A stretch of DNA of 64,000 nucleotides from Escherichia coli (GTDB lineage: Bacteria; Pseudomonadota; Gammaproteobacteria; Enterobacterales; Enterobacteriaceae): NCBI RefSeq assembly GCF_041886205.1, contig NZ_CP169029.1. One strand, given 5' to 3'. Both the position numbers and the translations under genes were made by a program. Below are positions 1-56,512 of this stretch, in pieces. The notes under the pieces were generated by a model, which saw nothing but the letters and a program-made list of their open reading frames with translations, was not told the origin of the DNA and searched no databases. Positions within the stretch are counted from its first letter, which is position 1. Each line of letters starts with the position of its first letter.

Positions 1-575
1 CCAAAACAGCACAGCAGCACATCGCCCGGCTGTGCCGCTGACAACGGCACCTGATACAGCCCCGTCGCCTCCAGATTGCGTTTCACCCACGAAGCATGGC
101 CGCCATTGTCACCAAGAAAATCCCCGCCCTGCGACATAGCGATGGAAAGAGCAGGTATTGATTCGTAGTACGCCAGCATTTCAGAAAGGATCGCATCCAG
201 TTTCCTTATCGGAAAATAGGCCTGGTCATAGTTGCGATCCACCCGAAACTGGAACTCGTGATAATCATCATCGAGCTGAATGAAGTATTTACACCCGACC
301 AGTTTTGCCAGGTCGAAACAGGCATTACGGGCGTAAAAAATTGAGCGGCGGTCACAGAAATTATCGGCTTCGTCAAAACGACTGGCGATATCGGCTTTGG
401 AAAACACCAGCACCTGTTCACCAAATTCAGCCATGTACTGATGCCGTGTCTTATCTTCATCATCAACAACGATAAAAATTTTCCCGGTATAGCCAGCACG
501 ACGCAACGTCCGGTAAGTCAGAACTTTGTCCGGTCGCCCGTGAGTCAGAATAAAGGCGCAAAAATCATCACGCAT
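1..575 (-). CDS. Hypothetical protein, N-terminal ~191 aa only (gene continues past window start); weak GT-A-like motif pattern
   Basis: Own translation of the minus strand from ATG at 573-575: MRDDFCAFILTHGRPDKVL...IFIVVDDEDK...YFIQLDDDY. Start overlaps the stop of the upstream ParB-like gene (ATGCGTGA). Not in the ORF track because there is no stop inside the window. Confidence 0.5.
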   Translation of the reverse strand, partial: MRDDFCAFILTHGRPDKVLTYRTLRRAGYTGKIFIVVDDEDKTRHQYMAEFGEQVLVFSKADIASRFDEADNFCDRRSIFYARNACFDLAKLVGCKYFIQLDDDYHEFQFRVDRNYDQAYFPIRKLDAILSEMLAYYESIPALSIAMSQGGDFLGDNGGHASWVKRNLEATGLYQVPLSAAQPGDVLLCCF

Positions 576-1359
576 ATTCCTCCTCCTCACCACCATGCAT
601 GATCTCCACCATGCGCTGCGTCATCCGGACAAATCCATTTTCAATAGCCTGCTGATAATCAATGATCACCAGCGCCGACTCCTCGAAAAAACACTGAATT
701 TCAGCGGGGGCGTGAGCGTAATAGTCCGCAATTCTGCTGAAATTAAACACCGTGTGACGTTCTGCCGCACACAGGAGGAATTTCTCAATATCAGGCTCAA
801 GGGAAGCCAAACGTATCCGGCTGATCAGCTCCTGCGTTTTCGTATCGTCGTACAGTTCACTGATATCCGGTTTACCGCCCGACGGCTCATAAACAGGCGT
901 ATCAATTTTCGTCGTATACGGCTCCTCCTCATTTCCTGTACCGGGCAAAACATCCGTCAACAGTTCATCAATTTCTGTCGGGATGAAGCCTGTCAGGGAG
1001 ACATCAAAATCAGCATTGATTAGGTCCGACAGCTCCATCCGCAACAGATCTTCATCCCAGCCAGCATTCATCGGCAGGCGATTATCTGCCAGGCGGTACG
1101 CCTTTTTCTGCTCATCCGTCAGGCCAGACAGAACAATGACCGGAACAGAATCCATTTTGAGCATTTCAGCCGCCATAACACGACCGTGACCCGCAATAAT
1201 TTCGCCCTTTTCGTCAATCAGCACCGGATTAGTCCAGCCGAATTGCTTAATACTTTCTACCAGTTGTGCCACCTGCTCAGGGCTGTGCGTCCTGGCGTTG
1301 TGCGCATACGGTGACAATTCTTGTAATGGGCGATAGACTATCTTTAATTTCTCGCTCAT
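568..1359 (-). CDS. ParB-like nuclease domain (ParB/Srx fold) protein, 263 aa
   Basis: N-terminal ~100 aa resemble the ParB N-terminal domain (…AGHGRVMAA…); C-terminal 150 aa unrecognised. Good RBS (AAGGATG) before ATG. Position after trkG mirrors the Rac-prophage arrangement. Confidence 0.6.
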   Translation of the reverse strand: MSEKLKIVYRPLQELSPYAHNARTHSPEQVAQLVESIKQFGWTNPVLIDEKGEIIAGHGRVMAAEMLKMDSVPVIVLSGLTDEQKKAYRLADNRLPMNAGWDEDLLRMELSDLINADFDVSLTGFIPTEIDELLTDVLPGTGNEEEPYTTKIDTPVYEPSGGKPDISELYDDTKTQELISRIRLASLEPDIEKFLLCAAERHTVFNFSRIADYYAHAPAEIQCFFEESALVIIDYQQAIENGFVRMTQRMVEIMHGGEEEEYA

Positions 1360-1496
1360 ACATCCTTGCTTTATGAATAAAACGCACCCCAGCAGCCAGT
1401 GCTACTGGGGGCGGAGGTGTTGCTGGTAAAGTTAGGTATTGGATCAATGAGTGAGTCAACATAATATTAAACTCACAATTATAAATCAGCCATATA

Positions 1497-2954
1497 TTAG
1501 GAGCGCCAAAAAAAACCTGAAAACAAAATAATAACAGGATAAATTTCAAGGCGACCAAGAATCATAGCTATGCACATTAAATATTTTGCAATGTCATTAA
1601 GCACTCCGAATGACGATGCAGTAGCCCCAAAACCTAATCCCATATTATTAATACATGCAGCCACTGTTGCAAATGATGTAAGAAAATCATATCCCATACC
1701 ATTTAACACCAGTATAAAAAACACCGTGAAGAGAGTATAAAGAAAAAAGAAACTCCATACAGACCTCATTACACGATCTGTAACTATCTTCCCTCCTACA
1801 TTTACACTCAACAACGCTCTGGGATGAGAAAGCTGATTTATCTCGTGTTTGCTTTGTTTGAAAAGTATAAGAAATCGAAGTGACTTAATTCCACCACAAG
1901 TTGAACCTATACATCCCCCAAAGAAACTTGACAACAGCAAAAACACTATCGTGTGCGTGGGCCAGCTTGCATAATCCTGCATAGCTAAACCATTATCAGT
2001 GAGCATGGAGCTGGCAAGAAAAAACGAATGAATAAAACTTCCATGCAAGTCATACATACCTATATGCCAGACCTGGAAAGAGGTAACAATGATCACCCCT
2101 AAGGCTATTAACAGAAAGAAACGAAGTTCAATATCTCTGATTAAAGGTTTTATCGTTTTCCTGCTAATAACAATATACCAAAGAGTGAAGTTGAAAGCCG
2201 ATAGCAGGGAAAAAGAACCAGCCACCAGCTCAACCAAATAGTTATTAAAATATCCGATACTCTCGCTATGAGTTGAGAAACCACCAAGCGAAACTGTGGA
2301 AATCCCGTGACAAATAGCATCAAACAAAGGCATTCCTGCAAGTCTATAACAGACAATACAAGCAATACCTAATAAAGAATAAGTTATCCACAGTGTCCGT
2401 GACGTATCGGCCAGGCGGGGAGTGAGTTTGTCATCCTTAAATGGCCCCGGCATTTCTGACTGATAAAGCTTTGCACCACCAATACCCAATAATGGCAATA
2501 CAGCAACCGCCAGAACAATAACTCCTAAACCACCTATAAAATTTAACTGTGACCGATAGTACAAATATGCCCGAGGTAATGAACTAACATCATCAATTAC
2601 AGTTGCTCCTGTTGTTGTTATTCCAGAAACCCCTTCAAACAGAGCATCAATGAACGTTAAATTAAGTTCTGAGTCAATCCATAAAGGGAATGCACTAATA
2701 ACAGAAAACAAAATCCAAAACATTACAATTATAATAAACCCATCACGGGTACGTAATTGAATGCCAGATTTCTTAGTTGTATACCACGCTCCGCCACCAA
2801 TGCAAAAAAATATAACGAAAGTTATAAAGAAAACGAACAGGCTTTTTTCTTTATAAAACAATGCTACAACCATTGGTGGCAACATTGAAAGACTATAGAG
2901 CCAAACCAGGAACCCACACATATGAGTAACAACTCTTACATGAGATGTATTCAT
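1497..2954 (-). CDS. trkG: TrkG/TrkH-family potassium uptake membrane protein (prophage-borne)
   Basis: Translation from MNTSHVRVVTHMCGF… gives 485 aa, multi-pass membrane protein with Trk-type motifs; AT-rich codon usage. The ORF track starts 6 codons upstream (2972). Confidence 0.85.
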   Translation of the reverse strand: MNTSHVRVVTHMCGFLVWLYSLSMLPPMVVALFYKEKSLFVFFITFVIFFCIGGGAWYTTKKSGIQLRTRDGFIIIVMFWILFSVISAFPLWIDSELNLTFIDALFEGVSGITTTGATVIDDVSSLPRAYLYYRSQLNFIGGLGVIVLAVAVLPLLGIGGAKLYQSEMPGPFKDDKLTPRLADTSRTLWITYSLLGIACIVCYRLAGMPLFDAICHGISTVSLGGFSTHSESIGYFNNYLVELVAGSFSLLSAFNFTLWYIVISRKTIKPLIRDIELRFFLLIALGVIIVTSFQVWHIGMYDLHGSFIHSFFLASSMLTDNGLAMQDYASWPTHTIVFLLLSSFFGGCIGSTCGGIKSLRFLILFKQSKHEINQLSHPRALLSVNVGGKIVTDRVMRSVWSFFFLYTLFTVFFILVLNGMGYDFLTSFATVAACINNMGLGFGATASSFGVLNDIAKYLMCIAMILGRLEIYPVIILFSGFFWRS

Positions 2955-3091
2955 ATCTAAATATTCTTTCAATTATAACCACCTTGCTGCAATATTATGA
3001 TTATACTGTATAAAATTTAACTCCTCTTAGATCTTACTTCACTGTTCCTTATGAAACAATCATCAAAATGAATCATATTGTAGTTAAGATT

Positions 3092-3556
3092 TTACTTTAA
3101 ACACTGTTCGGTTATGTATTGCTGAGCACCTTCAAGTTGGGCCTGCATCATTACCAGTCGTTCCCGGAGGGTGAAATAATCCCGTTCAGCGGTGTCTGCC
3201 AGTCGGGGGGAGGCTGCATTATCCACGCCGGAGGCGGTGGTGGCTTCACGCACTGACTGACAGACTGCTTTGATGTGCAACCGACGACGACCAGCGGCAA
3301 CATCATCACGCAGAGCATCATTTTCAGCTTTCGCATCAGCTAACTCCTTCGTGTATTTTGCATCGAGCGCAGCAACATCACGCTGACGCATCTGCATGTC
3401 AGTAATTGCCGCGTTCGCCAGCTTCAGTTCTCTGGCATTTTTGTCGCGCTGGGCTTTGTAGGTAATGGCGTTATCACGGTAATGATTAACAGCCCATGAC
3501 AGGCAGACGATGATGCAGATAACCAGAGCGGAGATAATCGCGGTTACTCTGTTCAT
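3092..3556 (-). CDS. Rz i-spanin (lysis protein)
   Basis: [51 protein letters not shown]… closely matches lambda-family Rz. ATG overlaps the endolysin-frame stop. Confidence 0.85.
3151..3336 (-). CDS. Rz1 o-spanin lipoprotein, embedded in Rz in the +1 frame
   Basis: …[42 protein letters not shown]… with lipobox and proline-rich segment typical of Rz1. Exact start uncertain. Confidence 0.75.
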
Positions 3557-3570
3557 TGCTGACCCCACAA

Positions 3571-4050
3571 ACAGATTTCACGCTCAATCTCACGACGAGT
3601 CATGAGACCTTTCCATTGCTTACCGCCAGCATATGTCCAGCGACGTAGCTGATCACATGCGCCTTTGATATCGCCCTAGTTTATTTTGCGAAGAAGCGTC
3701 GATGTTCTGAAATTGCCAGCACCCACGTTGTAAACGAATGAGTAAAGAGCGCCGCGCATTGTTTCCGGTATATCGACTTTGATGTACGGGTTAATTTGTC
3801 TGGCGACCGTGGCAAGGTCTTTATTCAGGAGGGCTTTGCATTCTGCTTTGGTATACGTTTTACCGGGAATGATGTCTTTTCCTGTATGCCCGTGACATAC
3901 AGTCCATACACCAACAATATCTTTGTATGGTATGTAGCTGACACCTTCCAGACCATCGTTACCACTTGGGCCAGTAATTAACACTGATGCTATAGCAATT
4001 GCTCCGCCACCAATAGCAGCAGCAACGGCTTTTCGTAATGATGGAGGCAT
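3571..4050 (-). pseudogene. SAR-type endolysin (phage-21/DLP12 RrrD-like lysozyme) interrupted by an in-frame amber codon
   Basis: ORF ends at TAG (3676-3678) after 124 aa. The same frame continues for 34 more codons ([40 protein letters not shown]) to a TGA overlapping the Rz start. Looks like a CAG-to-TAG change. Confidence 0.7.
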
Positions 4051-4265
4051 TATTCACCTCTCGCAGCCTTGCGCTTATCTTCTTTAATCTTGAAATAAAG
4101 GTTTGTCAGGTACGTCAGCAGGCCAAATACCAGGCTACCCAGCACACCTATTGCTGCCCACTGTGAGGGCGTGACTTTATCGAGCAGCTGTAAAAACCAG
4201 TAACCGGCACTACCTGCTGAGGTGCCATAGGCGACACCCGTTGTTAACTTATCCATGGATTTCAT
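4050..4265 (-). CDS. Class II holin / pinholin (S21-like)
   Basis: [71 protein letters not shown]; two closely spaced Met starts as in phage-21 S. ORF-track start at 4310 is probably too far upstream. Confidence 0.8.
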
Positions 4266-4385
4266 AACCCCACCTCGCAGACAAAGCGGGTGTAAATTGA
4301 GGGAATACAACGTATCGCAAAAAAGCAGAAACGTAACAGACTCGGAGTCAGTGAATAACTCAGGTATTGGGTTATCAGCTAATAT

Positions 4386-4426
4386 CGAGACTCAAAAAAT
4401 GGAAAAACCCGCTCGACGGCGGGTTT
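4386..4426 (-). terminator. Candidate rho-independent terminator on the minus strand just upstream of the holin (possible tR'-like element)
   Basis: Minus-strand hairpin AAACCCGCCGTCGAGCGGGTTT followed by TTCCATTTTTTGAG. Confidence 0.4.
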
Positions 4427-4852
4427 AAGCTGTGTGACGAAGTAACCACTCTTAACAGCATAACCAATTTTTTACGTACGTAAACCACTAAATGATATTT
4501 GCGAGAATGCTACCGAGTATTGAAAACACCACTACAAATACATAAGCAAATCTCAACAAATAACCAACAAATAATTTCCAGCGTTATTTTTAGCTGGTTT
4601 AAATTGAACCTTCAAATTATAGAGCACTTATAAATAACAGCCATTAATATAAATTGGCTAATAGATTTATTTTTATTCAGCCAAGAGCCATGAATAGGAT
4701 TCGATAGAAAAAGTTCAGATAAAAATAGAGATCTACTTCACAAATCAAATGAGAAACCAAAACTTACATCTTGAAATAATCACATTGATTAGATGAATAT
4801 TTATCGCGCAGTGACATCATTTTTTAATAATAGTTCAAAAAAAGGGCTCACG

Positions 4853-5935
4853 ATGAAAAAATTAACAGTGGCAATTTCTGCTGTAGCTGCATCAGTACTG
4901 ATGGCGATGTCTGCTCAGGCAGCTGAAATTTATAATAAAGACAGTAACAAGCTGGATCTGTACGGGAAAGTTAATGCTAAGCACTACTTCTCCTCTAATG
5001 ATGCAGATGATGGTGATACTACTTATGCCCGTCTTGGCTTCAAAGGTGAAACCCAAATCAACGATCAACTGACTGGTTTCGGTCAGTGGGAATATGAATT
5101 CAAAGGCAACCGCGCTGAATCTCAAGGTTCCTCCAAAGATAAAACCCGTCTTGCCTTCGCTGGCCTGAAATTCGGTGACTACGGCTCCATCGATTATGGC
5201 CGTAACTACGGTGTAGCATACGATATTGGTGCATGGACCGACGTTCTGCCAGAATTCGGTGGCGATACCTGGACCCAAACAGATGTATTCATGACTGGTC
5301 GCACCACAGGTGTTGCAACTTATCGTAACAATGACTTCTTTGGTCTGGTTGATGGTCTGAACTTTGCTGCTCAGTATCAGGGTAAAAATGACCGCACTGA
5401 CGTAACTGAAGCTAATGGTGATGGTTTCGGTTTCTCCACTACTTATGAGTATGAAGGATTCGGTGTAGGTGCAACCTATGCTAAATCTGACCGCACTAAT
5501 AATCAGGTTATCTACGGTAACAACAGCCTGAATGCATCTGGTCAAAATGCTGAAGTATGGGCAGCTGGTCTGAAATATGATGCGAACAACATCTATCTGG
5601 CTACCACCTATTCTGAAACCCAGAACATGACTGTTTTTGGTAATAACCATATTGCCAACAAAGCACAAAACTTCGAAGTAGTTGCACAATATCAGTTCGA
5701 CTTCGGTCTGCGTCCGTCCGTTGCTTACCTGCAATCTAAAGGAAAAGACTTGGGTGCGTGGGGTGATCAGGACCTGGTTGAATATATTGATGTAGGTGCA
5801 ACCTATTACTTCAACAAAAATATGTCCACTTTTGTTGATTACAAAATCAACCTGATTGATAAGAGCGATTTCACGAAAGCATCTGGCGTTGCTACCGATG
5901 ATATCGTTGCTGTAGGTATGGTTTACCAGTTCTAA
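4853..5935 (+). CDS. nmpC: Outer-membrane general porin of the OmpC/OmpF/NmpC (phage Lc) family; appears intact
   Basis: [23 protein letters not shown] signal peptide, C-terminal …VGMVYQF, typical porin composition. Sits between Q and S on the opposite strand, as in DLP12 and PA-2. Confidence 0.8.
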
Positions 5936-6072
5936 TTTGATTACTAAAAGATATGTTGCGGGAGGCTTTGCCTCCCCAACATATAAGTGGCTCCCTCAAG
6001 CCACTTCCTTTAGGAGCACAACCTTGCTTCTAACTATATAAACCTTCTGTTATATATTACCCTTTATTTTTG

Positions 6073-6100
6073 GGGGCGTCTCAACGCCCCATTTTTAATA
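6073..6100 (+). terminator. Rho-independent terminator downstream of the porin gene
   Basis: GGGGCGTCTCAACGCCCC hairpin followed by ATTTTTAATAATTTTT. A second long hairpin (ATGTTGCGGGAGGCTTTGCCTCCCCAACAT) lies at 5957-5988. Confidence 0.5.
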
Positions 6101-6123
6101 ATTTTTAGTAAACAATTGGCATA

Positions 6124-6507
6124 TTAATTAGAGTTATTAACAACGATATCCATCTCTAACCGGATATCTAATGCCATTAACATCCCTTCAATTATGCCCT
6201 CAGCCTTCTGTAACCTTTTCCCGATATAACCATCAGAGCAGCAATGCTTACCTGCCAGTGACATGAATGTCATACCGACTACATAATAATCTACTAATAA
6301 ATCGTGCAAATCGCTGTTGTTCTTTTTCAGACGGGCCATGCACCCGCAAATAATCATCGCGTCATCGTCACAACATTGCGGGCGAGATTTTACTTTTGAA
6401 GTAATTAATCCCTTAAAACCGGCGGCAATGGACGACCAGGTCACATCTTCATGATTATTAGCCGCCCACGCTCCCCAACGCTCAAGAACCATCTGAATAT
6501 CACGCAT
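6124..6507 (-). CDS. quuD: Q-type late-gene antiterminator (DLP12 QuuD-like)
   Basis: [34 protein letters not shown]…[16 protein letters not shown]…; the ORF track extends 5 codons upstream. Confidence 0.8.
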
Positions 6508-6592
6508 CAACTTACTCCACAAAAATCAGACCAGAACGCCAATTACAAGCAAAAATCAACGAAACAGTATTAGTTGATTGTTATCTCTGACT

Positions 6593-6730
6593 TCATACTC
6601 CTGCTCCTGTCAGGGTTTTGGCGTAATTCTTCAGTATTCGGTAATCGGTCAAAACAGAACCGGGGAAACGATATAAGCGCAGACGCCCCCAGCGGTGGCG
6701 AAGACGTTCTGCCATATAAAACTCAAACAT
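6593..6730 (-). CDS. ylcG: Small nin-region ORF (YlcG-like, 45 aa)
   Basis: Own translation [48 protein letters not shown] overlaps the rusA stop (TGATG). Below the ORF-track size cut-off. Confidence 0.5.
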   Translation of the reverse strand: MFEFYMAERLRHRWGRLRLYRFPGSVLTDYRILKNYAKTLTGAGV

Positions 6731-7092
6731 CATTCATTCCCCATTTCGGTGATGGTCAGTTCCAGCCTCCCACCTTTGGTAACAGGCATCTTCACAACGC
6801 GGTAATCAACGACCTGAGCATCATCCAGCCAGAAACCTGCTTTAGTGAGTGCGTCAAAAGCGGCTTTTTGCAGATTATCCAGGTCACGGCGACGGCGATC
6901 CGGCATGTGGCACTCAATGCGGATTTTCACAGGCATAGCCAAGCCGATATCCAGCATTGCGTTTTTAATGATTCGGGCGACGTTATCGCGGTATGCCTGC
7001 CCCTCTGCGCTGACGTGCGTGCGCCCGCGATTATGGCGGTAATAGCGATTATTGCTCGGAGGCCAGGGTAATGTGATGCTGTAGGTATTCAC
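6730..7092 (-). CDS. rusA: RusA Holliday-junction resolvase
   Basis: [108 protein letters not shown]… 120 aa. Confidence 0.9.
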
Positions 7093-7379
7093 GCCTTAAT
7101 AACCCCCTCTTTCAGCCAGATAACCTGTGTTCTCGCCATACCTTCCAGCGCGCATTCTTTTGCATATGCAGCATCGACAAAATGTGTGCGGCGGTCGATT
7201 TCGTCGTGGCAGGCAGAACATGCAATGGTGGCAATCAGGTCTGGCGGTTTGGTACCGGTGCCGCACAATCCAGTCAGCCGGATATGTGCCAGTACAGACG
7301 TTTCAGGGTTACCATTACATACGCCAGGGATTCTTACCTGGCATTCCCGACTACGCGCTGCTTTTCTCAAATCAGCCAT
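7089..7379 (-). CDS. ybcO: Nin-region protein YbcO-like (96 aa)
   Basis: [67 protein letters not shown]…; ORF track starts further upstream at 7418. Confidence 0.75.
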
Positions 7380-7542
7380 GATTCCTCCTTGCTGCCAGTC
7401 GCAACCATTTTTTATCAACCAGGCTGGCGGTATATCCGAGCAGTGTTGGTATTTCGGAAGGTTTCAGCTCCGGTTTACGCTTACGACGATTTGGTACTCT
7501 GTAGATGTGTCCGTTCATGACACGAATAAGCGGTGTAGCCAT
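7372..7542 (-). CDS. ninE: NinE-like protein (56 aa)
   Basis: Own translation [56 protein letters not shown]; start overlaps ybcN stop, stop overlaps ybcO start. Confidence 0.75.
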   Translation of the reverse strand: MATPLIRVMNGHIYRVPNRRKRKPELKPSEIPTLLGYTASLVDKKWLRLAARRNHG

Positions 7543-7951
7543 TACGCCTCCTGCTTGTCACGGAGCTGCTGGAACTCGCAGCTCTGCGGAATAGTCAGAT
7601 GGCAGCCAATATTCACCGCCCAGGCTTCAACCTTACACAGGAAGACATACATCTCTCCGGTATCAAGATCGGAGGTATGGCGTAACGACTGGATAGTGGT
7701 GATATCACCGGTTACGACATCAACCAGGTCTTTGGTTTCATAACCGAGATATGTGTGTTTGAGAGCATCTTTTACCCAAGCTGGAGTGGCGAACGTTTTA
7801 CCCCTGCTGATGAGGTATTCACTGATTTCGCTGTACCACATGTGGCTGAGTGCATTCTGGGAAAGACTGCGTTTCTCACGCCACGGTTTAAGCACCATGA
7901 ACCGCCCCGGGAATCCTGGAGACTAAACTTCCTGAGAAAGAGGTAAACAGG

Positions 7952-8274
7952 ATGACTAAAAATACTCGTTTTTCCCCCGAAGTCCGTCAACGGGCAGTCC
8001 GTATGGTTCTGGAAAGTCAGAGCGAATATGACTCACAATGGGCGACAATTTGTTCCATTGCTCCAAAGATTGGCTGTACGCCGGAGACTCTGCGTGTCTG
8101 GGTTCGCCAGCATGAGCGGGATACCGGGGGCGGTGATGGAGGGCTCACCACCGCTGAACGTCAGCGTCTGAAAGAGCTGGAACGTGAAAATCGTGAACTG
8201 CGCCGCAGTAACGATATCCTTCGCCAGGCTTCCGCTTATTTTGCGAAGGCGGAGTTCGACCGCCTCTGGAAAAA

Positions 8275-8278
<4 letters not shown>
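7952..8278 (+). CDS. IS3-family transposase OrfA (HTH + leucine zipper)
   Basis: [60 protein letters not shown]…. Confidence 0.85.
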
Positions 8279-9166
<888 letters not shown>

Positions 9167-9270
9167 GTTCACAGATAAAACACTCTCCAGGAAACCCGGG
9201 GCGGTTCACCATGCGAAAGCATTTGCCCTCCTCCAGATAAGGCTGGATCTGCCGACCGATAGCGGTGAAG

Positions 9271-9558
9271 TTACCGCGATGTAATTTTATGCCGTCTTGT
9301 GGGAGGTTCACGCTTCACCTCCGCAGAGGCCAAACGCTGGATGCAAAAAATCGCAGGTGCATTTCTGCATCTGTGAATGGAGAAGATAGGTTGGTTTGTA
9401 TGTGCGCATAACCCCAAATCTTCATACGTTACGGTATCAAGGTAATAATCACTATTTACCTTTAGCCATTCAGTAATAAGCCTTCTCTGGCGGTTTAATG
9501 AATCACCAGACATCTGACCTGGTGATGAAAATCGCATATATGCTATGGCTTTTTTCAT
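9271..9558 (-). pseudogene. 5' fragment of a serine recombinase / resolvase gene (DLP12 YbcK-like)
   Basis: First ~50 aa (MKKAIAYMRFSSPGQMSGDSLNRQRRLITEWL…) look like a resolvase catalytic N-terminus; the rest is non-homologous and overlaps the ybcN start, implying a deletion junction. Confidence 0.5.
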
Positions 9559-9813
9559 GGTGACACCTGCTAAAGTATGCTTTTATAAACCTTAGTGGTG
9601 AGATATGATTTTTGTTTAATTTTTATTTAAAAAGACAATTAAGGTCACATTATCTTGAATATACAACAATAATCGCATTGCAATTTTCTTACACCATAAT
9701 CCTGAAAGCACAAAAGAATGAATAAAAACTAAAGACATTAACAAAAAGCATAAAACGAGGCCCATATAAATATACGAACCTCCATATTTTAGTCGTTTAA
9801 AAACAAATTATTT

Positions 9814-10146
9814 TTAATGTGGTGTGCTTCGTGACAATAAATTAATAACCAACACACCGGCACAAATCAACATCATGCCTATAATGGCTGGCAGGTCCAA
9901 CCGTTGGCCGAAAAATCCCCATGATAGTAAGCTAATCAGGACAATACCGACTCCTGACCAGATAGCATAAGCAATCCCTGTAGGAATATAAGCCAGCGTC
10001 TGAGCTAATAACCAGAATGATGCACAATAACAAATAATTGTACCAACAGATGGCCATAACCGTGTAAAACCTTCTGAAAACTTCATTAAGGTTGTACCAA
10101 TGACCTCTGCAAGTATTGCACCACCAAGATAAATATAAGGATTCAT
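9814..10146 (-). CDS. emrE: Small multidrug resistance efflux protein EmrE (110 aa)
   Basis: MNPYIYLGGAILAEVIGTTLMKFSEGFTRLWPSVGTIICYCASFWLLAQTLAYIPTGIAYAIWSGVGIVLISLLSWGFFGQRLDLPAIIGMMLICAGVLVINLLSRSTPH; the ORF track starts 18 codons upstream. Confidence 0.9.
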   Translation of the reverse strand: MNPYIYLGGAILAEVIGTTLMKFSEGFTRLWPSVGTIICYCASFWLLAQTLAYIPTGIAYAIWSGVGIVLISLLSWGFFGQRLDLPAIIGMMLICAGVLVINLLSRSTPH

Positions 10147-10213
10147 AGCATATTCTTTCCTGTTCAAACTGGAGAGAATTGTACTACAGTTTGAACTCAA
10201 CTCACCTGTTTCA

Positions 10214-10516
10214 TCATTGTGTACCCATTGATGTTCTTTTATATACCCTCAATACCCGTTTCATCGCGGCACTCTGGCGACACTCCTTAAAAATCAAATT
10301 CGTGCTCACCTTTCCTTCCCATTCTTCTCTGGTAGCGAACCGATAATACACCGTTCGCCAGACCTTACCATCAACGACCAGGATTCCTGCCCGCGCCATT
10401 TTAGCCGCAGCCTGATTTATGCTGGTTACCGTTGCGCCTGTTACCGCGGCAACGTCCTGCGCACAGAATTTCTTATGAGTCCCCAGGTAATGAATAATTG
10501 CCTCTTTGCCCGTCAT
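10214..10516 (-). CDS. ren: Lambda Ren-like protein
   Basis: MTGKEAIIHYLGTHKKFCAQDVAAVTGATVTSINQAAAKMARAGILVVDGKVWRTVYYRFATREEWEGKVSTNLIFKECRQSAAMKRVL…. Confidence 0.8.
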   Translation of the reverse strand: MTGKEAIIHYLGTHKKFCAQDVAAVTGATVTSINQAAAKMARAGILVVDGKVWRTVYYRFATREEWEGKVSTNLIFKECRQSAAMKRVLRVYKRTSMGTQ

Positions 10517-10901
10517 ACCCTTGCTCCTTTCAGCCCAAACTTAGCTTTGATTTCTGCGATCTTCGCCAGAGCCTGTGCACGATTTAGAGGTCTACCGCCC
10601 ATGACAGGAAGTTGTTTTACTGGTTCAGGTATAGCCTCACCACGGTTAATTCGCGCGGTCATACAGGCCAGTTCATCGGCAGCCTTGCGCCGTAATTCCG
10701 CGTCAGTCAACGCATTGGCCCGCATGTTCTGGTAGCCAGGCTCGCCGGGAAAGTTGCCAGTAACTGGCTGAACACACCATTGATGATCTGCGCTACCAGC
10801 TGTACCTGCGGCTTTTCGTCGTACTGTTCCGGCATGTTATTGGCGATCCGACGCATCTGCTCACGGTCAAAGTTAACCATCTGTGCGGCGATGTTTTTCA
10901 T
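10513..10901 (-). pseudogene. P: Replication protein P with an internal out-of-frame deletion
   Basis: N-terminal fragment MKNIAAQMVNFDREQMRRIANNMPEQYDEKPQVQ…ATFPASLA (10707-10901) and C-terminal fragment …YQNMRANALTDAELRRKAADEL…AKFGLKGARV (10513-10725) lie in different frames, joined near 10730. Confidence 0.75.
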
Positions 10902-11425
10902 AAATCCACCCCATAAATCCAGTCAGTGTTTGTCAGGTCGAGTTTTGATTTTCCGGCTGTCACGCCAGCCTGTTGCTTGTTACGGTTGATTTCGAGTTGG
11001 GTCCACTTGTCGCGGAGTTTGGCCGGACATAGCACGTTACCGGACCAGAAGTTGTCCTGGCATGCCCAGCGGAACAGCACGCACATGTCGCGGTGGTTAC
11101 GTCCGTCACGTTCACGCATCAGGCGGATATCGTTAGCCCACCCTGCAAAATTCGGTTTTCTGGCTGATGGCGCGATGGTCTTCACCATGTCAAACATCCA
11201 CTCTGCGGCGGTCAGGTCTTCTGCTGTCCCCCACTTGCTGCCGCTCTGAATTGCAGCATCCGGTTTCACCACAGGAAGATCGTTTTCTGGCTGGTCAGAG
11301 GATTCGTCAGAATTCTCGGACGAAAAAGGTTTTATATTGTCTTTTGTTAGTTTGTCTTTTGTGTTTACCTGATTCGGGTAAACGCCTTTAATCGAACAAG
11401 ACCCGTTAGTAACTATCGACATCAT
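10898..11425 (-). pseudogene. O: C-terminal remnant of replication initiator O; N-terminal domain and ori are absent
   Basis: …KDNIKPFSSENSDESSDQPENDLPVVKPDAAIQSGSKWGTAEDLTAAEWMFDMVKTIAPSARKPNFAGWANDIRLMRERDGRNHRDMCVLFRWACQDNFWSGNVL… matches the lambda O C-terminal domain. Upstream sequence is from the left arm (ea22 3' end), so the gene is truncated at a deletion junction. Confidence 0.75.
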
Positions 11426-11716
11426 TACGCATCGCTATTACGGGGTTGGAGGTCAATGGGTTCAGGATGCAGGTGAGTATCTGCATATGATGTCTGACGC
11501 TGGCATTCGCATCAAAGGAGAGTGAGATCGGTTTTGTAAAAGATAACGCTTGTGAAAATGCTGAATTTCGCGTCGTCTTCACAGCGATGCCAGAGTCTGT
11601 AGTGTCAGATGATGACCGTACTCAAACATCGGGTTGAGTATTATCTTACTGTTTCTTTACATAAACATTGCTGATACCGTTTAGCTGAAACGACATACAT
11701 TGCAAGGAGTTTATAA

Positions 11717-11998
11717 ATGAGTATCAATGAGTTAGAGTCTGAGCAAAAAGATTGGGCGTTATCAATGTTGTGCAGATCCGGTGTCTTGTCTCCATGCAGA
11801 CATCACGAAGGTGTTTATGTAGATGAAGGTATAGATATAGAGTCGGCATACAAATATTCCATGAAGGTTTATAAGTCTAATGAAGACAAATCCCCATTCT
11901 GCAATGTGCGAGAAATGACTGATACCGTGCAAAATTATTATCACGAGTACGGTGGAAACGATACTTGCCCTCTCTGTACAAAACATATAGATGATTAA
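11717..11998 (+). CDS. ea8.5: Lambda Ea8.5 protein (93 aa)
   Basis: MSINELESEQKDWALSMLCRSGVLSPCRHHEGVYVDEGIDIESAYKYSMKVYKSNEDKSPFCNVREMTDTVQNYYHEYGGNDTCPLCTKHIDD; correct spacing relative to xis/int. Confidence 0.85.
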   Translation: MSINELESEQKDWALSMLCRSGVLSPCRHHEGVYVDEGIDIESAYKYSMKVYKSNEDKSPFCNVREMTDTVQNYYHEYGGNDTCPLCTKHIDD

Positions 11999-12293
11999 AC
12001 CCAATATTACATAACAATCCTCGCACTCGCGGGGATTTATTTTATCTGAACTCGCTACGGCGGGTTTTGTTTTATGGAGATGATAAATGCACTTCCGAGT
12101 CACAGGAGAATGGAATGGAGAGCCATTCAACAGAGTTATCGAAGCGGAGAACATCAACGACTGCTACGACCACTGGATGATATGGGCGCAGATAGCACAT
12201 GCAGACATAACCAATATTCGAATTGAAGAACTGAAAGAACACCAAGCCGCCTGATGGCGGTTTTTTCTTGCGTGTAATTGCGGAGACTTTGCG

Positions 12294-12512
12294 ATGTACT
12301 TGACACTTCAGGAGTGGAACGCTCGCCAGCGACGCCCAAGAAGCCTTGAAACAGTTCGTCGATGGGTGCGCGAATGCAAGATATTCCCTCCTCCGGTTAA
12401 GGATGGAAGAGAATATCTGTTCCACGAATCAGCGGTAAAGGTTGACTTAAATCGACCAGTAACAGGTAGCCTTTTGAAGAGGATCAGAAATGGGAAGAAG
12501 GCGAAGTCATGA
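12294..12512 (+). CDS. xis: Excisionase Xis (72 aa)
   Basis: MYLTLQEWNARQRRPRSLETVRRWVRECKIFPPPVKDGREYLFHESAVKVDLNRPVTGSLLKRIRNGKKAKS; overlaps the int start as in lambda. Confidence 0.95.
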   Translation: MYLTLQEWNARQRRPRSLETVRRWVRECKIFPPPVKDGREYLFHESAVKVDLNRPVTGSLLKRIRNGKKAKS

Positions 12513-13560
12513 GCGCCGGGATTTACCCCCTAACCTTTATATAAGAAACAATGGATATTACTGCTACAGGGACCCAAGGACGGGTAAAGAGTTTGGATTA
12601 GGCAGAGACAGGCGAATCGCAATCACTGAAGCCATACAGGCCAACATTGAGTTATTTTCAGGACACAAACACAAGCCTCTGACAGCGAGAATCAACAGTG
12701 ATAATTCCGTTACGTTACATTCATGGCTTGATCGCTACGAAAAAATCCTGGCCAGCAGAGGAATCAAGCAGAAGACACTCATAAATTACATGAGCAAAAT
12801 TAAAGCAATAAGGAGGGGGCTGCCTGATGCTCCACTTGAAGACATCACCACAAAAGAAATTGCGGCAATGCTCAATGGATACATAGACGAGGGCAAGGCG
12901 GCGTCAGCCAACTTAATCAGATCAACACTGAGCGATGCATTCCGAGAGGCAATAGCTGAAGGCCATATAACAACAAACCCTGTCGCTGCCACTCGCGCAG
13001 CAAAATCAGAGGTAAGGAGATCAAGACTTACGGCTGACGAATACCTGAAAATTTATCAAGCAGCAGAATCATCACCATGTTGGCTCAGACTTGCAATGGA
13101 ACTGGCTGTTGTTACCGGGCAACGAGTTGGTGATTTATGCGAAATGAAGTGGTCTGATATCGTAGATGGATATCTTTATGTCGAGCAAAGCAAAACAGGC
13201 GTAAAAATTGCCATCCCAACAACATTGCATGTTGATGCTCTCGGGATATCAATGAAGGAAACACTTGATAAATGCAAAGAGATTCTTGGCGGAGAAACCA
13301 TAATTGCATCTACTCGTCGTGAACCGCTTTCATCCGGCACAGTATCAAGGTATTTTATGCGCGCACGAAAAGCATCAGGTCTTTCCTTCGAAGGGGATCC
13401 GCCTACCTTTCACGAGTTGCGCAGTTTGTCTGCAAGACTCTATGAGAAGCAGATAAGCGATAAGTTTGCTCAACATCTTCTCGGGCATAAGTCGGACACC
13501 ATGGCATCACAGTATCGTGATGACAGAGGCAGGGAGTGGGACAAAATTGAAATCAAATAA
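12490..13560 (+). CDS. int: Lambda-type tyrosine integrase Int (356 aa), apparently intact
   Basis: MGRRRSHERRDLPPNLYIRNNGYYCYRDPRTGKEFGLGRDRRIAITEAIQANIELFSGHKHKPL… with C-terminal …HELRSLSARLYEKQISDKFAQHLLGHKSDTMASQYRDDRGREWDKIEIK. Confidence 0.95.
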   Translation: MGRRRSHERRDLPPNLYIRNNGYYCYRDPRTGKEFGLGRDRRIAITEAIQANIELFSGHKHKPLTARINSDNSVTLHSWLDRYEKILASRGIKQKTLINYMSKIKAIRRGLPDAPLEDITTKEIAAMLNGYIDEGKAASANLIRSTLSDAFREAIAEGHITTNPVAATRAAKSEVRRSRLTADEYLKIYQAAESSPCWLRLAMELAVVTGQRVGDLCEMKWSDIVDGYLYVEQSKTGVKIAIPTTLHVDALGISMKETLDKCKEILGGETIIASTRREPLSSGTVSRYFMRARKASGLSFEGDPPTFHELRSLSARLYEKQISDKFAQHLLGHKSDTMASQYRDDRGREWDKIEIK

Positions 13561-13660
13561 TGATTTTATTTTGACTGATAGTGACCTGTTCGTTGCAACA
13601 AATTGATAAGCAATGCTTTTTTATAATGCCAACTTAGTATAAAAAAGCAGGCTTCAACGG
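13561..13660. other. attL prophage-host junction: phage P' arm (13561-13633), 15-bp core (13634-13648), bacterial arm
   Basis: …GTTGCAACAAATTGATAAGCAATGCTTTTTTATAATGCCAAC TTAGTATAAAAAAGC AGGCTTCA…; the sequence left of the core is the lambda attP arm, the sequence right of it runs into the ybhC upstream region. Confidence 0.9.
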
Positions 13661-13694
13661 ATTCATTTTTCTATTTCATAGCCCGGAGCAACCT

Positions 13695-14978
13695 GTGAAT
13701 ACATTTTCAGTTTCCCGTCTGGCGCTGGCATTGGCTTTTGGCGTGACGCTGACCGCCTGTAGCTCAACCCCGCCCGATCAACGTCCTTCTGATCAAACCG
13801 CGCCTGGTACCTCTTCTCGCCCGATTCTGTCGGCAAAAGAAGCGCAGAATTTCGATGCTCAACACTATTTTGCATCCCTGACACCAGGTGCTGCAGCGTG
13901 GAATCCTTCCCCGATTACCCTGCCTGCGCAACCTGACTTTGTTGTCGGCCCGGCGGGCACTCAAGGTGTAACGCATACCACGATTCAGGCGGCGGTAGAT
14001 GCGGCAATTATCAAGCGTACCAACAAGCGCCAGTATATTGCCGTGATGCCTGGTGAGTATCAGGGAACGGTATATGTCCCTGCCGCTCCGGGTGGAATTA
14101 CTCTGTACGGTACAGGTGAAAAACCGATTGATGTGAAGATTGGGCTTTCCCTTGATGGTGGCATGAGCCCTGCCGACTGGCGTCACGACGTCAACCCGCG
14201 CGGCAAATATATGCCAGGTAAACCAGCGTGGTATATGTACGATAGCTGCCAGAGCAAACGCAGCGACAGTATCGGTGTTCTCTGCTCTGCGGTCTTCTGG
14301 TCACAAAACAATGGCCTGCAACTGCAAAATCTGACCATCGAAAACACGCTGGGCGATAGCGTAGATGCAGGTAACCATCCGGCGGTGGCACTGCGTACTG
14401 ATGGTGACCAGGTACAGATTAACAACGTTAACATTCTCGGTCGTCAGAACACCTTCTTTGTCACCAACAGCGGTGTGCAGAACCGTCTGGAAACGAATCG
14501 TCAGCCGCGTACGCTGGTGACCAACAGCTACATTGAAGGGGATGTGGATATCGTTTCTGGTCGCGGCGCAGTGGTGTTCGATAACACCGAATTCCGCGTG
14601 GTGAACTCACGTACTCAGCAAGAAGCGTATGTGTTTGCACCGGCTACGCTGTCCAACATTTACTACGGTTTCCTCGCCGTAAACAGCCGTTTCAATGCTT
14701 TCGGTGATGGTGTGGCGCAACTGGGCCGCTCGCTGGATGTTGATGCCAATACCAACGGTCAGGTGGTGATCCGTGATAGCGCCATCAACGAAGGTTTTAA
14801 CACGGCTAAACCGTGGGCCGATGCGGTGATCTCTAATCGTCCGTTTGCGGGTAATACCGGCAGCGTAGATGATAACGACGAAATACAGCGCAATCTGAAT
14901 GACACTAACTACAACCGCATGTGGGAATACAATAACCGCGGCGTGGGCAGCAAAGTGGTTGCAGAGGCGAAGAAGTAA
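13695..14978 (+). CDS. ybhC: Outer-membrane lipoprotein YbhC (pectinesterase-like acyl-CoA thioesterase family)
   Basis: Lipoprotein signal (…LTLTACSS), 427 aa. Confidence 0.85.
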   Translation: MNTFSVSRLALALAFGVTLTACSSTPPDQRPSDQTAPGTSSRPILSAKEAQNFDAQHYFASLTPGAAAWNPSPITLPAQPDFVVGPAGTQGVTHTTIQAAVDAAIIKRTNKRQYIAVMPGEYQGTVYVPAAPGGITLYGTGEKPIDVKIGLSLDGGMSPADWRHDVNPRGKYMPGKPAWYMYDSCQSKRSDSIGVLCSAVFWSQNNGLQLQNLTIENTLGDSVDAGNHPAVALRTDGDQVQINNVNILGRQNTFFVTNSGVQNRLETNRQPRTLVTNSYIEGDVDIVSGRGAVVFDNTEFRVVNSRTQQEAYVFAPATLSNIYYGFLAVNSRFNAFGDGVAQLGRSLDVDANTNGQVVIRDSAINEGFNTAKPWADAVISNRPFAGNTGSVDDNDEIQRNLNDTNYNRMWEYNNRGVGSKVVAEAKK

Positions 14979-47597: not shown

Positions 47598-49166
47598 TTA
47601 GCGTGCCGGCTGAGTAGTCGTGGAAGACTGCTCAAAGTGATAGCGACCGGTTTTCAGGCTGCTTGGGCCGAGGCGTGCAAACTTGAACATTAAGAACAAT
47701 TCTGCCACCAGGAACAGGGTATACAGGCCGCAAATCAGCACCATTGAGAAGATGAGATCGCCTGCGGTCAGTGACGAGTTCGCCACAGCTGTCGGCAGCA
47801 CTTCACCGATAGCCCACGGTTGGCGGCCATATTCAGCCACGAACCAGCCCGCTTCTACAGCAATCCACGGCAGCGGAATACCGTACAGCGCGGCGCGCAG
47901 AAGCCATTTTTTCTCGCCAATGCGGTTGCGGATGACACTCCAGAAAGAGAGCGCGATGATTGCCAGAAGCAGGAAGCCACACGCCACCATGATACGGAAC
48001 GCAAAGTACAGCGGCGCTACACGCGGGATGGAGTCTTTGGTTGCCTGTTGAATCTGCGCTTCAGTCGCATCAGCCACGTTTGGCGTATAGCGTTTCAGCA
48101 GCAGACCGTAACCGAGGTCTTTCTTCATGCTATTGAACTGGTCACGAACCGCCTGGTCGGTAGAACCAGAACGCAGTTGTTCGAGCAGAGAGTACGCCTT
48201 CATCCCGTTACGAATGCGTTCTTCATGCTGCACCATCAGCTCTTTCAGGCCGATAACCGGGGTATCCACGGAACGCGTTGCAATGATGCCCAGTGCGTAA
48301 GGGATCTGAATCGCAAATTTGTTCGTCTCCTCTTCCTGATCAGGAATGCCGAACAGAGTAAAGGCAGCAGGCGCAGGTTGCGTTTCCCACTCGGCTTCAA
48401 TAGCAGCCAGTTTGGTTTTCTGCACGTCGCCCATTTCGTAGCCGGATTCATCACCCAGAACAATAACAGACAGAACAGCAGCCATACCGAAGCTGGCAGC
48501 GATAGCAAAGGAGCGTTTAGCGAAGGCGAAGTCACGACCTTTCAGCATATACCATGCGCTGATACCGAGGATGAACATCGCGCCAGTCACATAACCAGAC
48601 GCTACAGTGTGAACGAATTTCACCTGAGCAACCGGGTTAAGCACCAGCTCGGAGAAGCTCACCATCTCCATACGCATAGTTTCAAAGTTGAAATCGGACG
48701 CGATTGGGTTTTGCATCCAGCCGTTCGCAACCAGAATCCACAGTGCGGACAGGTTTGAACCGAGCGCCACCAGCCAGGTGACACACATATGCTGAACTTT
48801 ACCCAGACGATCCCAACCGAAGAAGAACAGACCTACAAAGGTGGATTCGAGGAAGAAGGCCATCAGACCTTCGATTGCCAGCGGCGCACCGAAGATATCC
48901 CCTACATAGTGGGAATAGTAAGACCAGTTAGTCCCGAACTGGAACTCCATGGTCAGACCGGTAGCCACACCCAGAGCGAAGTTGATACCAAACAACTTGC
49001 CCCAGAACTTGGTCATATCTTTATAAATCTGTTTGCCGGAGAGGACGTAGACCGTTTCCATAATGGCCAGCAGGAACGCCATACCGAGCGTCAGTGGCAC
49101 AAAAAGGAAGTGGTACATCGCGGTCAAGGCAAACTGTAAGCGCGACAGTTCGACTATATCTAACAT
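47598..49166 (-). CDS. cydA: Cytochrome bd-I ubiquinol oxidase subunit I
   Basis: 522 aa, [41 protein letters not shown]…; the ORF track begins one codon upstream. Confidence 0.95.
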
Positions 49167-49503
49167 CATGACTCCTTGCTCATCGCATGAAGACTCCGAG
49201 AGTGAACCCCGTTAGAAAGGGTCACACGCATGCCCCAATACAAAATTATTTGCTCGCCTCTATCGTTGCCATTTCATCTAAAGAGGAAAAGACAATGATA
49301 AAAAAGTTACAAATATGTTAATGAATAAACCAAATTGATCCCGTAATTATATTACGCCGCAAAATCCTTACAATAAACAGGTTTTTATTGAGCAAATTTG
49401 CATTTTTCGACAGTGATCAATTTATAGCGAAATTGTCACGACCTCACCAATTTGATCTACGACAATTTATCGTGTTTTGCAGATTTATTTCAAGAATTAA
49501 AAA

Positions 49504-49517
49504 TTGATTTATATCAA
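49504..49517. promoter_or_regulatory. Candidate FNR/CRP-family site in the AT-rich cydAB control region
   Basis: TTGATTTATATCAA matches TTGAT-N4-ATCAA exactly; lies about 340 bp upstream of cydA. Confidence 0.45.
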
Positions 49518-53804: not shown

Positions 53805-53822
53805 CAATTAAGGCTGCAATCA

Positions 53823-56509: not shown

Positions 56510-56512
56510 CAA

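What the first reader, a model, noticed from the sequence alone, without database searches (positions are those of the whole stretch)
1497..2954. Full-length K+ transporter gene carried as prophage cargo
A 485-aa Trk-family membrane subunit with strongly AT-biased codon usage sits between Rz and the ParB-like gene. It appears intact and could contribute to host potassium uptake.
Basis: partly seen in the sequence, partly recalled or inferred. Interest (0 to 1): 0.35.

Follow-up and report, generated by a model that had tools for sequence, protein, structure and literature searches.

The report
trkG potassium transporter on a prophage
This is trkG, the long-known phage-borne second copy of the E. 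coli Trk potassium-uptake membrane subunit; it is intact here and ordinary, apart from one rare amino-acid change near the ion pore.

Summary
Window 1497-2954 (minus strand) is an uninterrupted 485-codon gene. It is 483/485 aa identical to E. coli K-12 TrkG (b1363) and 41% identical to chromosomal TrkH. It matches Pfam TrkH over its full length (E 1e-143). It lies between the Rz/Rz1 spanin genes and a ParB-like (ynaK-type) gene, inside a sharp low-GC island (38% GC, GC3 32.5%; flanks about 50%).

This gene and its prophage origin are textbook knowledge. K+ uptake, Na+ dependence and partial H-NS silencing were shown experimentally for the K-12 allele. The same Rz-trkG-ParB module occurs at 99% identity or more in about 1,550 of 5,426 complete E. 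coli genomes and in 10 phage records.

Refinements:
- The host prophage is a decayed lambdoid element at the lambda attachment site (int next to ybhC), not Rac at ttcA.
- The allele carries T325M, found in only 2 of 1,539 E. coli records and in none of 118 homologue clusters. It lies two residues from D327 and three from filter glycine G322, so function is probable but untested.
- An upstream in-frame TTG (2972) with a strong Shine-Dalgarno sequence may be the true start (491 aa).

Novelty: already known. Interest: low.

The parts
1497..2954 (-). trkG coding sequence (485 aa from the ATG at 2954, stop included). An alternative in-frame TTG start at 2972 would give 491 aa.
   Evidence: ORF. 483/485 aa identical to K-12 TrkG. 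Pfam TrkH E 1e-143. 41% identical to K-12 TrkH. E 2.5e-120 to the solved Vibrio TrkH structures 3PJZ/4J9U.
2955..3091 (-). AT-rich (25.5% GC) upstream intergenic region. It contains TATAAT hexamers at 3005-3000 and 2977-2972, the Shine-Dalgarno sequence AAGGTGG at 2985-2979, and the TTG at 2972-2970. This is the probable trkG promoter and leader.
   Evidence: Sequence read; GC. The consensus scan found only one weak -35/-10 pair at 3101..3072, no more than shuffles give. The promoter is therefore inferred, not shown.
1375..1413 (-). Intrinsic-terminator-like hairpin with a U-tract, downstream of the trkG stop and upstream of the ParB-like gene.
   Evidence: Found by the scan. RNA fold gives -25.2 kcal/mol, z = -4.2, with 0 of 200 shuffles folding as well.
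1400..3100 (.). Low-GC island (35-43% GC) with sharp borders against flanks of about 50% GC. This is the cargo ('moron') unit: trkG plus both intergenic regions.
   Evidence: Composition profile; per-gene GC and GC3.
3092..3556 (-). Rz i-spanin gene, with the embedded Rz1 o-spanin lipoprotein ORF (3151-3336). This is the upstream neighbour, and most of it belongs to the 2.4-kb segment shared with K-12 Rac.
   Evidence: Pfam Phage_lysis E 3.7e-53. ORFs. The blastn block window 1106-3536 matches K-12 Rac at 99.3%.
568..1359 (-). ParB/Srx N-terminal-domain gene (full-length 263 aa; ynaK in K-12 is a truncated copy). This is the downstream neighbour.
   Evidence: Pfam ParB_N. Annotated homologues.
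1980..1982 (-). Codon 325, ATG (Met) here and ACG (Thr) in K-12 and nearly all other E. coli. A rare substitution in the third pore loop (G322...D327).
   Evidence: SNP at 1981; the exact 44-nt allele occurs in 2 of 1,539 records. Thr in 98, Pro in 18, Ile in 1, Ala in 1 and Met in 0 of 118 homologue clusters. PMC9898762 names T325 as a contact of D327.
12490..13560 (+). Tyrosine integrase at the prophage end, directly next to host ybhC (13695-14978). This places the trkG-bearing prophage at the lambda attachment site.
   Evidence: ORFs. Annotation of near-identical genomes: wlxctx60 and 6EVA.

Best explanation
The gene is trkG, the ion-conducting membrane subunit of a Trk/Ktr/HKT-type K+ uptake system, carried as a self-contained cargo gene ('moron') in the late region of a lambdoid prophage.

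Shown here:
- It is a full-length TrkH-family protein.
- All four pore-loop glycines are present (G116, G225, G322, G439), as are the conserved GGCxGSTxGGxK intramembrane loop (346-357) and the conserved Arg468.
- It is near-identical to K-12 TrkG.
- It lies in a 1.7-kb low-GC island between Rz and a ParB-like gene, followed by a strong terminator hairpin.

Taken from published work on the K-12 allele:
- TrkG takes up K+ in a Na+-activated manner, also lets Na+ in, and uses the host's cytoplasmic TrkA.
- It is expressed in the lysogen although partly repressed by H-NS.
- It can substitute for TrkH.

Inferred:
- The allele in this window does the same. It gives the host a second, kinetically different K+ uptake route, whether or not the now defective prophage can still be induced.
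- Transcription starts in the AT-rich region 2955-3091.
- Translation probably starts at the TTG at 2972.
For: Identity:
- 483/485 aa identical to b1363.
- RefSeq annotates the 100%-identical gene as trkG.

Family:
- Pfam and NCBIfam matches.
- Full-length alignment to the solved VpTrkH structure.
- Invariant pore residues across 20 and 118 homologues.

Cargo status:
- GC 38% against about 50% in the flanks, with sharp borders.
- Terminator hairpin of -25.2 kcal/mol, z = -4.2.
- Flanking lysis, terminase and capsid genes in close relatives.
- The same Rz-trkG-ParB module is present in 1,550 of 5,426 complete E. coli genomes, in 10 phage records, and in prophages at two different attachment sites: ttcA/Rac and att-lambda/ybhC.

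Function:
- PMC9898762 reports K+ uptake, Na+ dependence, H-NS repression and mutual compensation with TrkH.
- PMC5700373 names trkG among the few Rac genes conserved across E. coli.
Against: - No activity was measured for this allele.
- T325M replaces a residue that is Thr in 98 of 118 homologue clusters and never Met. It is nearly private to this lineage (2 of 1,539 records).
- T325 is reported to contact D327, the residue linked to Na+ activation. The same paper found that swapping four pore-loop residues abolished activity. A change in activity or Na+ dependence therefore cannot be excluded.
- Promoter-like hexamers in the region are no more frequent than in shuffled sequence.
- trkA and sapD, which the system needs, are outside the window and could not be checked.
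Confidence: 0.85

Rival explanations
1. The gene is open but functionally impaired. T325M, in the third pore loop, inactivates or destabilises the transporter, so the gene is a decaying remnant like much of the surrounding prophage.
For: - M325 is rare and has no precedent in 118 homologue clusters.
- The neighbouring D327 and the pore-loop residues are sensitive to mutation.
- The prophage is decaying: the lysozyme gene has an amber codon, an IS has inserted into ybcN, and the replication genes are truncated.
Against: - The position tolerates Pro, Ile and Ala in other members of the clade.
- All invariant pore residues are intact.
- There is no frameshift or stop.
- The same allele is kept in two other independent isolates from Singapore and Japan.
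Confidence: 0.1
2. trkG mainly serves the phage. It lies in the late operon on the same strand as S-R-Rz and the terminase genes. Q-antiterminated late transcription would therefore read through it and supply K+ uptake during lytic growth, rather than serving the lysogen.
For: - Same strand as the lysis and late genes, and positioned between them.
- Retained in full-length prophages deposited as phage records.
Against: - The gene has its own AT-rich upstream region and a strong terminator.
- It is expressed in uninduced K-12, whose Rac is cryptic.
- It is kept in heavily decayed prophages that can no longer grow lytically.
- The decayed related prophage DLP12 is recalled to carry borD at this position instead; this is from memory, not checked here.
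Confidence: 0.07
3. It is an ordinary host chromosomal gene that merely ended up next to phage debris, and is not phage cargo.
For: The closest homologues outside E. coli are in non-phage chromosomal settings: E. fergusonii between a porin gene and an hchA-like gene, and Enterobacter near parC.
Against: - In sampled E. coli records the gene lies between Rz and the ParB-like gene.
- It travels with prophages at two different attachment sites.
- It occurs in only 29% of genomes.
- It is compositionally foreign.
- The E. fergusonii-type locus is absent from E. coli.
Confidence: 0.02

Closest known systems
E. coli K-12 TrkG (b1363, P23849), Rac prophage
   Same: - 483/485 aa identical.
- Same length.
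- Same immediate neighbours: Rz/Rz1 upstream and ParB-like ynaK downstream.
- A 2,431-bp block at 99.3% nucleotide identity.
- Same low GC.
   Different: - T325M and C458Y. At 458 the window has the clade consensus Tyr and K-12 is the outlier.
- The host prophage is integrated at att-lambda (ybhC), with a lambda/DLP12-like early and nin-Q-lysis region, instead of Rac at ttcA.
- Rz and the ParB-like gene are full-length here but truncated in K-12.
E. coli TrkH (b3849) and Vibrio parahaemolyticus TrkH (PDB 3PJZ, 4J9U)
   Same: - Same fold family and length.
- Four M1-P-M2 repeats with conserved filter glycines, the intramembrane loop and the gating Arg.
- 41% identity to EcTrkH; E 2.5e-120 to VpTrkH.
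   Different: - It scores below the NCBIfam TrkH equivalog cutoff (449 against 866 bits).
- It belongs to a separate TrkG clade that carries D327 (invariant in 118 of 118 clusters).
- Published K-12 data show Na+-dependent K+ uptake and Na+ permeability for TrkG but not for TrkH.
Chromosomal TrkG-clade paralogues of other Enterobacterales (E. fergusonii 79%, Citrobacter 77%, Pectobacterium 75%, Enterobacter 70%, Serratia 66%)
   Same: - Same clade, with D327 and all pore residues conserved.
- E. fergusonii has the same SD-plus-TTG arrangement six codons upstream of the ATG.
   Different: - These homologues are not in prophages.
- Their GC follows the host: 42% in E. fergusonii, 57% in Enterobacter.
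- No donor above 80% identity over the full length was found (one partial E. albertii entry reaches 88%), so the source of the phage copy remains unknown.
Lambdoid 'moron' genes inserted beside the lysis cassette (e.g. lambda bor, DLP12 borD, nmpC-type porins)
   Same: - A host-benefit gene placed at the end of the lysis cassette.
- Deviant base composition.
- Its own terminator.
- Retained in defective prophages.
   Different: - The cargo is a 12-helix-class inner-membrane ion transporter that must pair with the host's TrkA, not a surface protein.
- The comparison with bor rests on general knowledge and was not tested here.

Membership tests
TrkH/TrkG subunit of the Trk/Ktr/HKT superfamily (Pfam PF02386, TIGR00933) | Full-length match to the family profile above the curated cutoff | tested here: met
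   PF02386 at 479.9 bits (cutoff 27) over residues 40-483. TIGR00933 at 412 bits (cutoff 331).
TrkH/TrkG subunit of the Trk/Ktr/HKT superfamily (Pfam PF02386, TIGR00933) | Four pore loops, each with the selectivity-filter glycine | tested here: met
   G116, G224/G225, G322 and G439 are invariant in 20 of 20 and 118 of 118 aligned homologues and present in the window protein. They align to VpTrkH.
TrkH/TrkG subunit of the Trk/Ktr/HKT superfamily (Pfam PF02386, TIGR00933) | Intramembrane loop in D3M2 (GGCxGSTxGGxK) and the conserved Arg in D4M2 | tested here: met
   G346, G347, C348, G350, S351, T352, G354, G355, K357 and R468 are invariant and present.
TrkH/TrkG subunit of the Trk/Ktr/HKT superfamily (Pfam PF02386, TIGR00933) | Works with the cytoplasmic RCK protein TrkA (and SapD/TrkE for ATP dependence) | not testable with these tools
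   trkA and sapD lie outside the 64-kb window. The dependence is known from work on K-12 (PMC9898762 discussion).
TrkH/TrkG subunit of the Trk/Ktr/HKT superfamily (Pfam PF02386, TIGR00933) | K+ transport activity | not testable with these tools
   Shown for the K-12 allele, which differs by 2 aa, but not for this allele.
TrkG orthologue (as opposed to TrkH) | Near-identity to b1363, failure to reach the TrkH equivalog cutoff, and D327 present | tested here: met
   99.6% identity. NF008020 at 449 bits against a cutoff of 866. D327 is present and invariant in the clade.
Prophage cargo gene ('moron') | Located inside a prophage and flanked by phage genes | tested here: met
   Rz/Rz1, lysozyme, holin, Q and rusA lie on one side and the ParB-like gene on the other. 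The integrase at 12490-13560 abuts ybhC. Full prophages with the same module are seen.
Prophage cargo gene ('moron') | Base composition distinct from the surrounding phage genes | tested here: met
   GC 38.0% and GC3 32.5% against 47-53% in the flanking phage genes, with sharp borders at about 1400 and about 3100.
Prophage cargo gene ('moron') | Own promoter and terminator, giving expression from the repressed prophage | tested here: inconclusive
   The terminator hairpin is strong. Promoter motifs are present but no more frequent than chance. Expression in uninduced K-12 is published.

The most novel reading that the evidence does not exclude
The near-private T325M allele changes the Na+ activation or the K+/Na+ selectivity of TrkG. 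It replaces the Thr that contacts D327, two residues from D327 and three from the third filter glycine. If so, it would be a natural variant that pinpoints the Na+-sensing site of a Trk/Ktr/HKT transporter. Two smaller open points: (1) the real protein may be 491 aa, starting from the TTG at 2972; (2) trkG and the neighbouring prophage porin may derive from an adjacent porin-trkG pair like the one in the E. fergusonii chromosome.
Probability: 0.15. Interest if true: 0.3.

Novelty: already known. Interest (0 to 1): 0.08.

Why it matters
The finding matters little as a discovery. trkG has been known since 1991 as the prophage-borne paralogue of trkH, and its transport properties, H-NS control and physiological role were re-examined in 2022 (PMC9898762).

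It remains a clean example of a phage-delivered housekeeping-type transporter that the host keeps while the prophage decays. It also shows that the 2.4-kb Rz-trkG-ParB module moves between lambdoid prophages at different attachment sites.

The only item with some experimental value is the rare T325M variant beside the residue implicated in Na+ activation.

Tried and rejected
- I looked for inactivating lesions by comparing with K-12 trkG at DNA and protein level. There are none: only 6 SNPs, no indels and no stops.
- I tested whether the window is the classical Rac locus. It is not. Only 2,431 bp (window 1106-3536) match the K-12 Rac region, and the integrase abuts ybhC at att-lambda.
- I looked for flanking direct or inverted repeats that might mark how the cargo was inserted. 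Only short AT-rich chance matches turned up.
- I scanned 1-14000 against Rfam. Nothing lies in or near trkG; the only hit is the ALIL frameshift pseudoknot of the IS3-family element.
- I looked for a donor. The best non-coli full-length homologue is only 79% identical (E. fergusonii), and that locus type is absent from E. coli, so the source remains unresolved.
- I checked for phage-gene remnants between the porin and the trkG-like gene in E. fergusonii by tblastx. None were found.
- The promoter scan was uninformative: 5 sites against 6.2 expected from shuffles.
- No structure prediction was run. AlphaFold is insensitive to single substitutions, and solved homologues already cover the whole protein.

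Full report
**Observation**

The six-frame ORF list shows one long open frame on the minus strand, 1497..2972. Its internal ATG at 2954 gives the 485-aa protein at exactly the coordinates reported. The protein matches Pfam TrkH (PF02386) at E 9.9e-144 over residues 40-483. It matches the NCBIfam 'TrkH family potassium uptake protein' subfamily model above its curated cutoff (412 against 331 bits). It falls well short of the cutoff of the TrkH equivalog model (449 against 866 bits).

The upstream neighbour is an Rz i-spanin gene at 3092-3556 (Phage_lysis, E 3.7e-53), with an embedded Rz1 lipoprotein ORF at 3151-3336. The downstream neighbour is a 263-aa ParB_N-domain gene at 568-1359.

The AT bias is real and sharply bounded:
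- Gene GC is 38.0% and GC3 is 32.5%. The adjacent phage genes have 47-53% GC, and K-12 trkH has 53% GC and 63% GC3.
- A 200-nt profile falls from about 50% to 35-40% GC at about 1400 and recovers to 55% at about 3100.

**Identity**

The protein is 483/485 identical, without gaps, to TrkG of E. coli K-12 MG1655 (b1363). At the DNA level there are six substitutions: three synonymous, and three that give T325M and C458Y. It is 41% identical to K-12 TrkH. It aligns end to end with the crystallised Vibrio parahaemolyticus TrkH (3PJZ, 4J9U; E 2.5e-120).

A megablast of window 1300-3100 finds the Rz-trkG-ParB segment in 1,550 of 5,426 complete E. coli genomes, at 99% identity or more in 1,515 records, and the gene is annotated 'Trk system potassium transporter TrkG'. 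The segment is also in ten deposited phage or prophage records and on 15 plasmids.

**Integrity**

Two alignments were used: 20 TrkG-clade and TrkH sequences, and a recount over 118 cluster representatives from the homologue search. In the window protein:
- The four filter glycines (G116, G225, G322, G439) are present and invariant.
- The GGCxGSTxGGxK intramembrane loop (346-357), R468 and D327 are present and invariant.
- At position 458 the window carries Tyr, the clade consensus (95 of 118). The Cys of K-12 is the outlier.
- At position 325 the window carries Met, where 98 of 118 clusters have Thr, 18 Pro, 1 Ile and 1 Ala, and none has Met.

A 44-nt probe spanning codon 325 matches exactly in only 2 of 1,539 E. 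coli records; all the others differ. Strains 6EVA and wlxctx60 both carry M325. K-12, HN68 and phage 683R6 all have Thr.

Tanudjaja et al. (PMC9898762) linked D327 to the Na+ activation of TrkG and named T325 among the residues that contact D327. They also reported that swapping four pore-loop residues between TrkG and TrkH abolished uptake. The gene is therefore intact by every sequence criterion, but it carries one rare change at a functionally interesting place. Because the position tolerates Pro, Ile and Ala elsewhere, I consider loss of function unlikely (about 0.1).

**Context**

The window is not the classical Rac locus. Only window 1106-3536 matches the K-12 Rac region, at 99.3% over 2,431 bp. 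That block covers most of Rz, trkG and the first 254 nt of the ParB-like gene.

Features of the prophage in the window:
- It ends with a tyrosine integrase at 12490-13560, directly beside ybhC (13695-14978), followed by ybhJ, mod and gal. This is the lambda attachment site.
- The nearest genomes, wlxctx60 and 6EVA, have the same arrangement.
- ETEC H10407 also has trkG next to ybhC. The literature describes lambdoid prophages at attB in such strains (PMC4287979).
- Its nin-Q-porin-lysis region is annotated with DLP12-type names (ybcN, ninE, ybcO, rusA, ylcG, quuD, an ompC-family porin, essD, rrrD, rzpD).

In most other strains the same trkG module sits in a Rac-type prophage with racR, recET and intR next to ttcA. 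The late region beyond ParB (terminase, P22-type coat, tail genes) is shared between the two kinds of prophage. The module therefore circulates among mosaic lambdoid prophages.

The prophage in the window is defective:
- The lysozyme gene has an amber codon at codon 125 (3676-3678) that wlxctx60 lacks.
- A 1.3-kb IS3-family element (7900-9206, with its ALIL frameshift pseudoknot at 8233-8349) interrupts ybcN.
- In the near-identical wlxctx60 the replication genes and tail genes are fragments.

**Cargo anatomy**

A hairpin with a U-tract lies downstream of the trkG stop, at 1413-1375. It folds at -25.2 kcal/mol, with z = -4.2 and no shuffle folding as well.

The 137-bp intergenic region upstream of trkG is 25.5% GC. 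It contains two perfect TATAAT hexamers, at 3005-3000 and 2977-2972. Promoter-like matches in the region are no more frequent than in shuffled sequence, so the promoter is inferred rather than shown. Expression from the uninduced cryptic prophage, and partial repression by H-NS and StpA, are published for K-12.

**Start codon**

The conventional ATG at 2954 has no Shine-Dalgarno sequence. Several things point instead to the in-frame TTG at 2972, six codons upstream:
- It is preceded by AAGGTGG with a 6-nt spacer.
- The E. fergusonii homologue has GGAGG plus TTG at the same place.
- The 491-aa homologues of Pectobacterium, Pantoea, Enterobacter and others begin at the aligned position with similar residues: MKEYLD in the window, MKNHYS and MQRYLT in homologues.

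Some phage annotators already call the 491-aa form. I think the TTG start is more likely than not. It is untested, and it would not change the function.

**Mechanism**

The best-supported account is the published one. TrkG forms the ion-conducting subunit, pairs with the host's TrkA, and takes up K+ in a Na+-activated manner (half-activation about 2 mM Na+). It also admits Na+. It is a minor system beside TrkH but can compensate for its loss.

- Shown here: identity, integrity of the pore architecture, and cargo status.
- Taken from the literature on an allele that differs by two residues: transport and regulation.
- Inferred: that this allele behaves the same.

Rival readings are an impaired allele, a gene that serves the phage in lytic growth, and an ordinary host gene. 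They are weighed in their own section; together they carry about 0.2.

**Origin**

The homologue search shows a distinct TrkG clade in Enterobacterales at 60-79% identity. The three contexts examined are not prophages:
- In E. fergusonii the gene lies between a porin gene and an hchA-like gene.
- In Enterobacter it lies near ygiQ, ftsP and parC.
- In Serratia it lies in an island next to a P4-type primase.

The E. fergusonii porin next to the trkG-like gene is 82% identical in DNA to the porin gene of the window's prophage. In the window that porin gene lies 1.8 kb from trkG, on the other side of the lysis cassette and in the opposite relative orientation. No phage remnants lie between the two genes in E. 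fergusonii, and that locus type is absent from E. coli. This hints at a common history for the two cargo genes, but it does not identify a donor.

**Verdict**

This is a correct reading of an already well-known gene. Novelty: already known. Interest is low (0.08). The residual value lies in the rare T325M allele and the likely mis-annotated start codon.

Noticed in passing
window 2970-2985 (minus strand): An in-frame TTG at 2972, preceded by AAGGTGG with a 6-nt spacer, would extend TrkG to 491 aa. The same SD-plus-TTG arrangement is conserved in E. fergusonii, and the 491-aa homologues start at the aligned position. The annotated ATG at 2954 has no SD. The standard 485-aa annotation may be six codons short.
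   Followed up: partly
window 3553-4050 (minus strand), codon 125 at 3676-3678: The phage lysozyme (rrrD-type) gene carries an amber codon (CAG to TAG, Q125*). The otherwise near-identical genome wlxctx60 has the intact 165-aa gene.
   Followed up: yes
window 7900-9206: A 1.3-kb IS3-family element (IS1203/IS629-like; orfA at 7952-8278, ALIL frameshift pseudoknot at 8233-8349) is inserted in the prophage ybcN gene relative to wlxctx60. Its orfB appears split into two ORFs (8275-8664 and 8675-9166).
   Followed up: partly
window 4769-6099; locus L005 4361-5708: The prophage ompC/nmpC-type porin gene between Q and the holin gene is 82% identical in DNA to a chromosomal porin of E. fergusonii. That porin lies immediately upstream of the closest non-coli trkG homologue (79% aa). 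The two prophage cargo genes thus have adjacent chromosomal counterparts.
   Followed up: partly
plasmid records H80-H89 (e.g. NZ_CP022274.1, Citrobacter freundii; NZ_CP055012.1, Klebsiella quasipneumoniae): The Rz-trkG-ParB segment (99.6% identity) occurs on 15 plasmids, 12 of them predicted conjugative, including plasmids of Citrobacter, Klebsiella and Enterobacter. The E. coli prophage fragment has therefore been picked up by plasmids and has left the species.
   Followed up: no
window about 49000-62000: Between cydA and mngB lies an accessory island. It has a low-GC stretch (34-37% GC at 49-52 kb, hypothetical genes) followed by genes that, by correspondence to the wlxctx60 annotation, are methylaspartate mutase (glmS/glmL/subunit E), methylaspartate ammonia-lyase, fumarate hydratase and a dicarboxylate symporter (a glutamate-fermentation type pathway). 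It is recalled to be absent from K-12 at this position (not checked here).
   Followed up: no
window 568-1359: The ParB-like gene is a full 263-aa ORF here and in 6EVA. It is truncated to 87 aa (ynaK) in K-12 and annotated as broken in wlxctx60 and HN68.
   Followed up: partly
locus L004 6348-7679 (wlxctx60, just beyond the left end of the window): In the closest genome the other end of this att-lambda prophage abuts a diguanylate cyclase gene next to ybhB. This may be the dgcX 'hitch-hiker' described for lambdoid prophages at attB (PMC4287979). It lies outside the window, and its identity was not checked.
   Followed up: no
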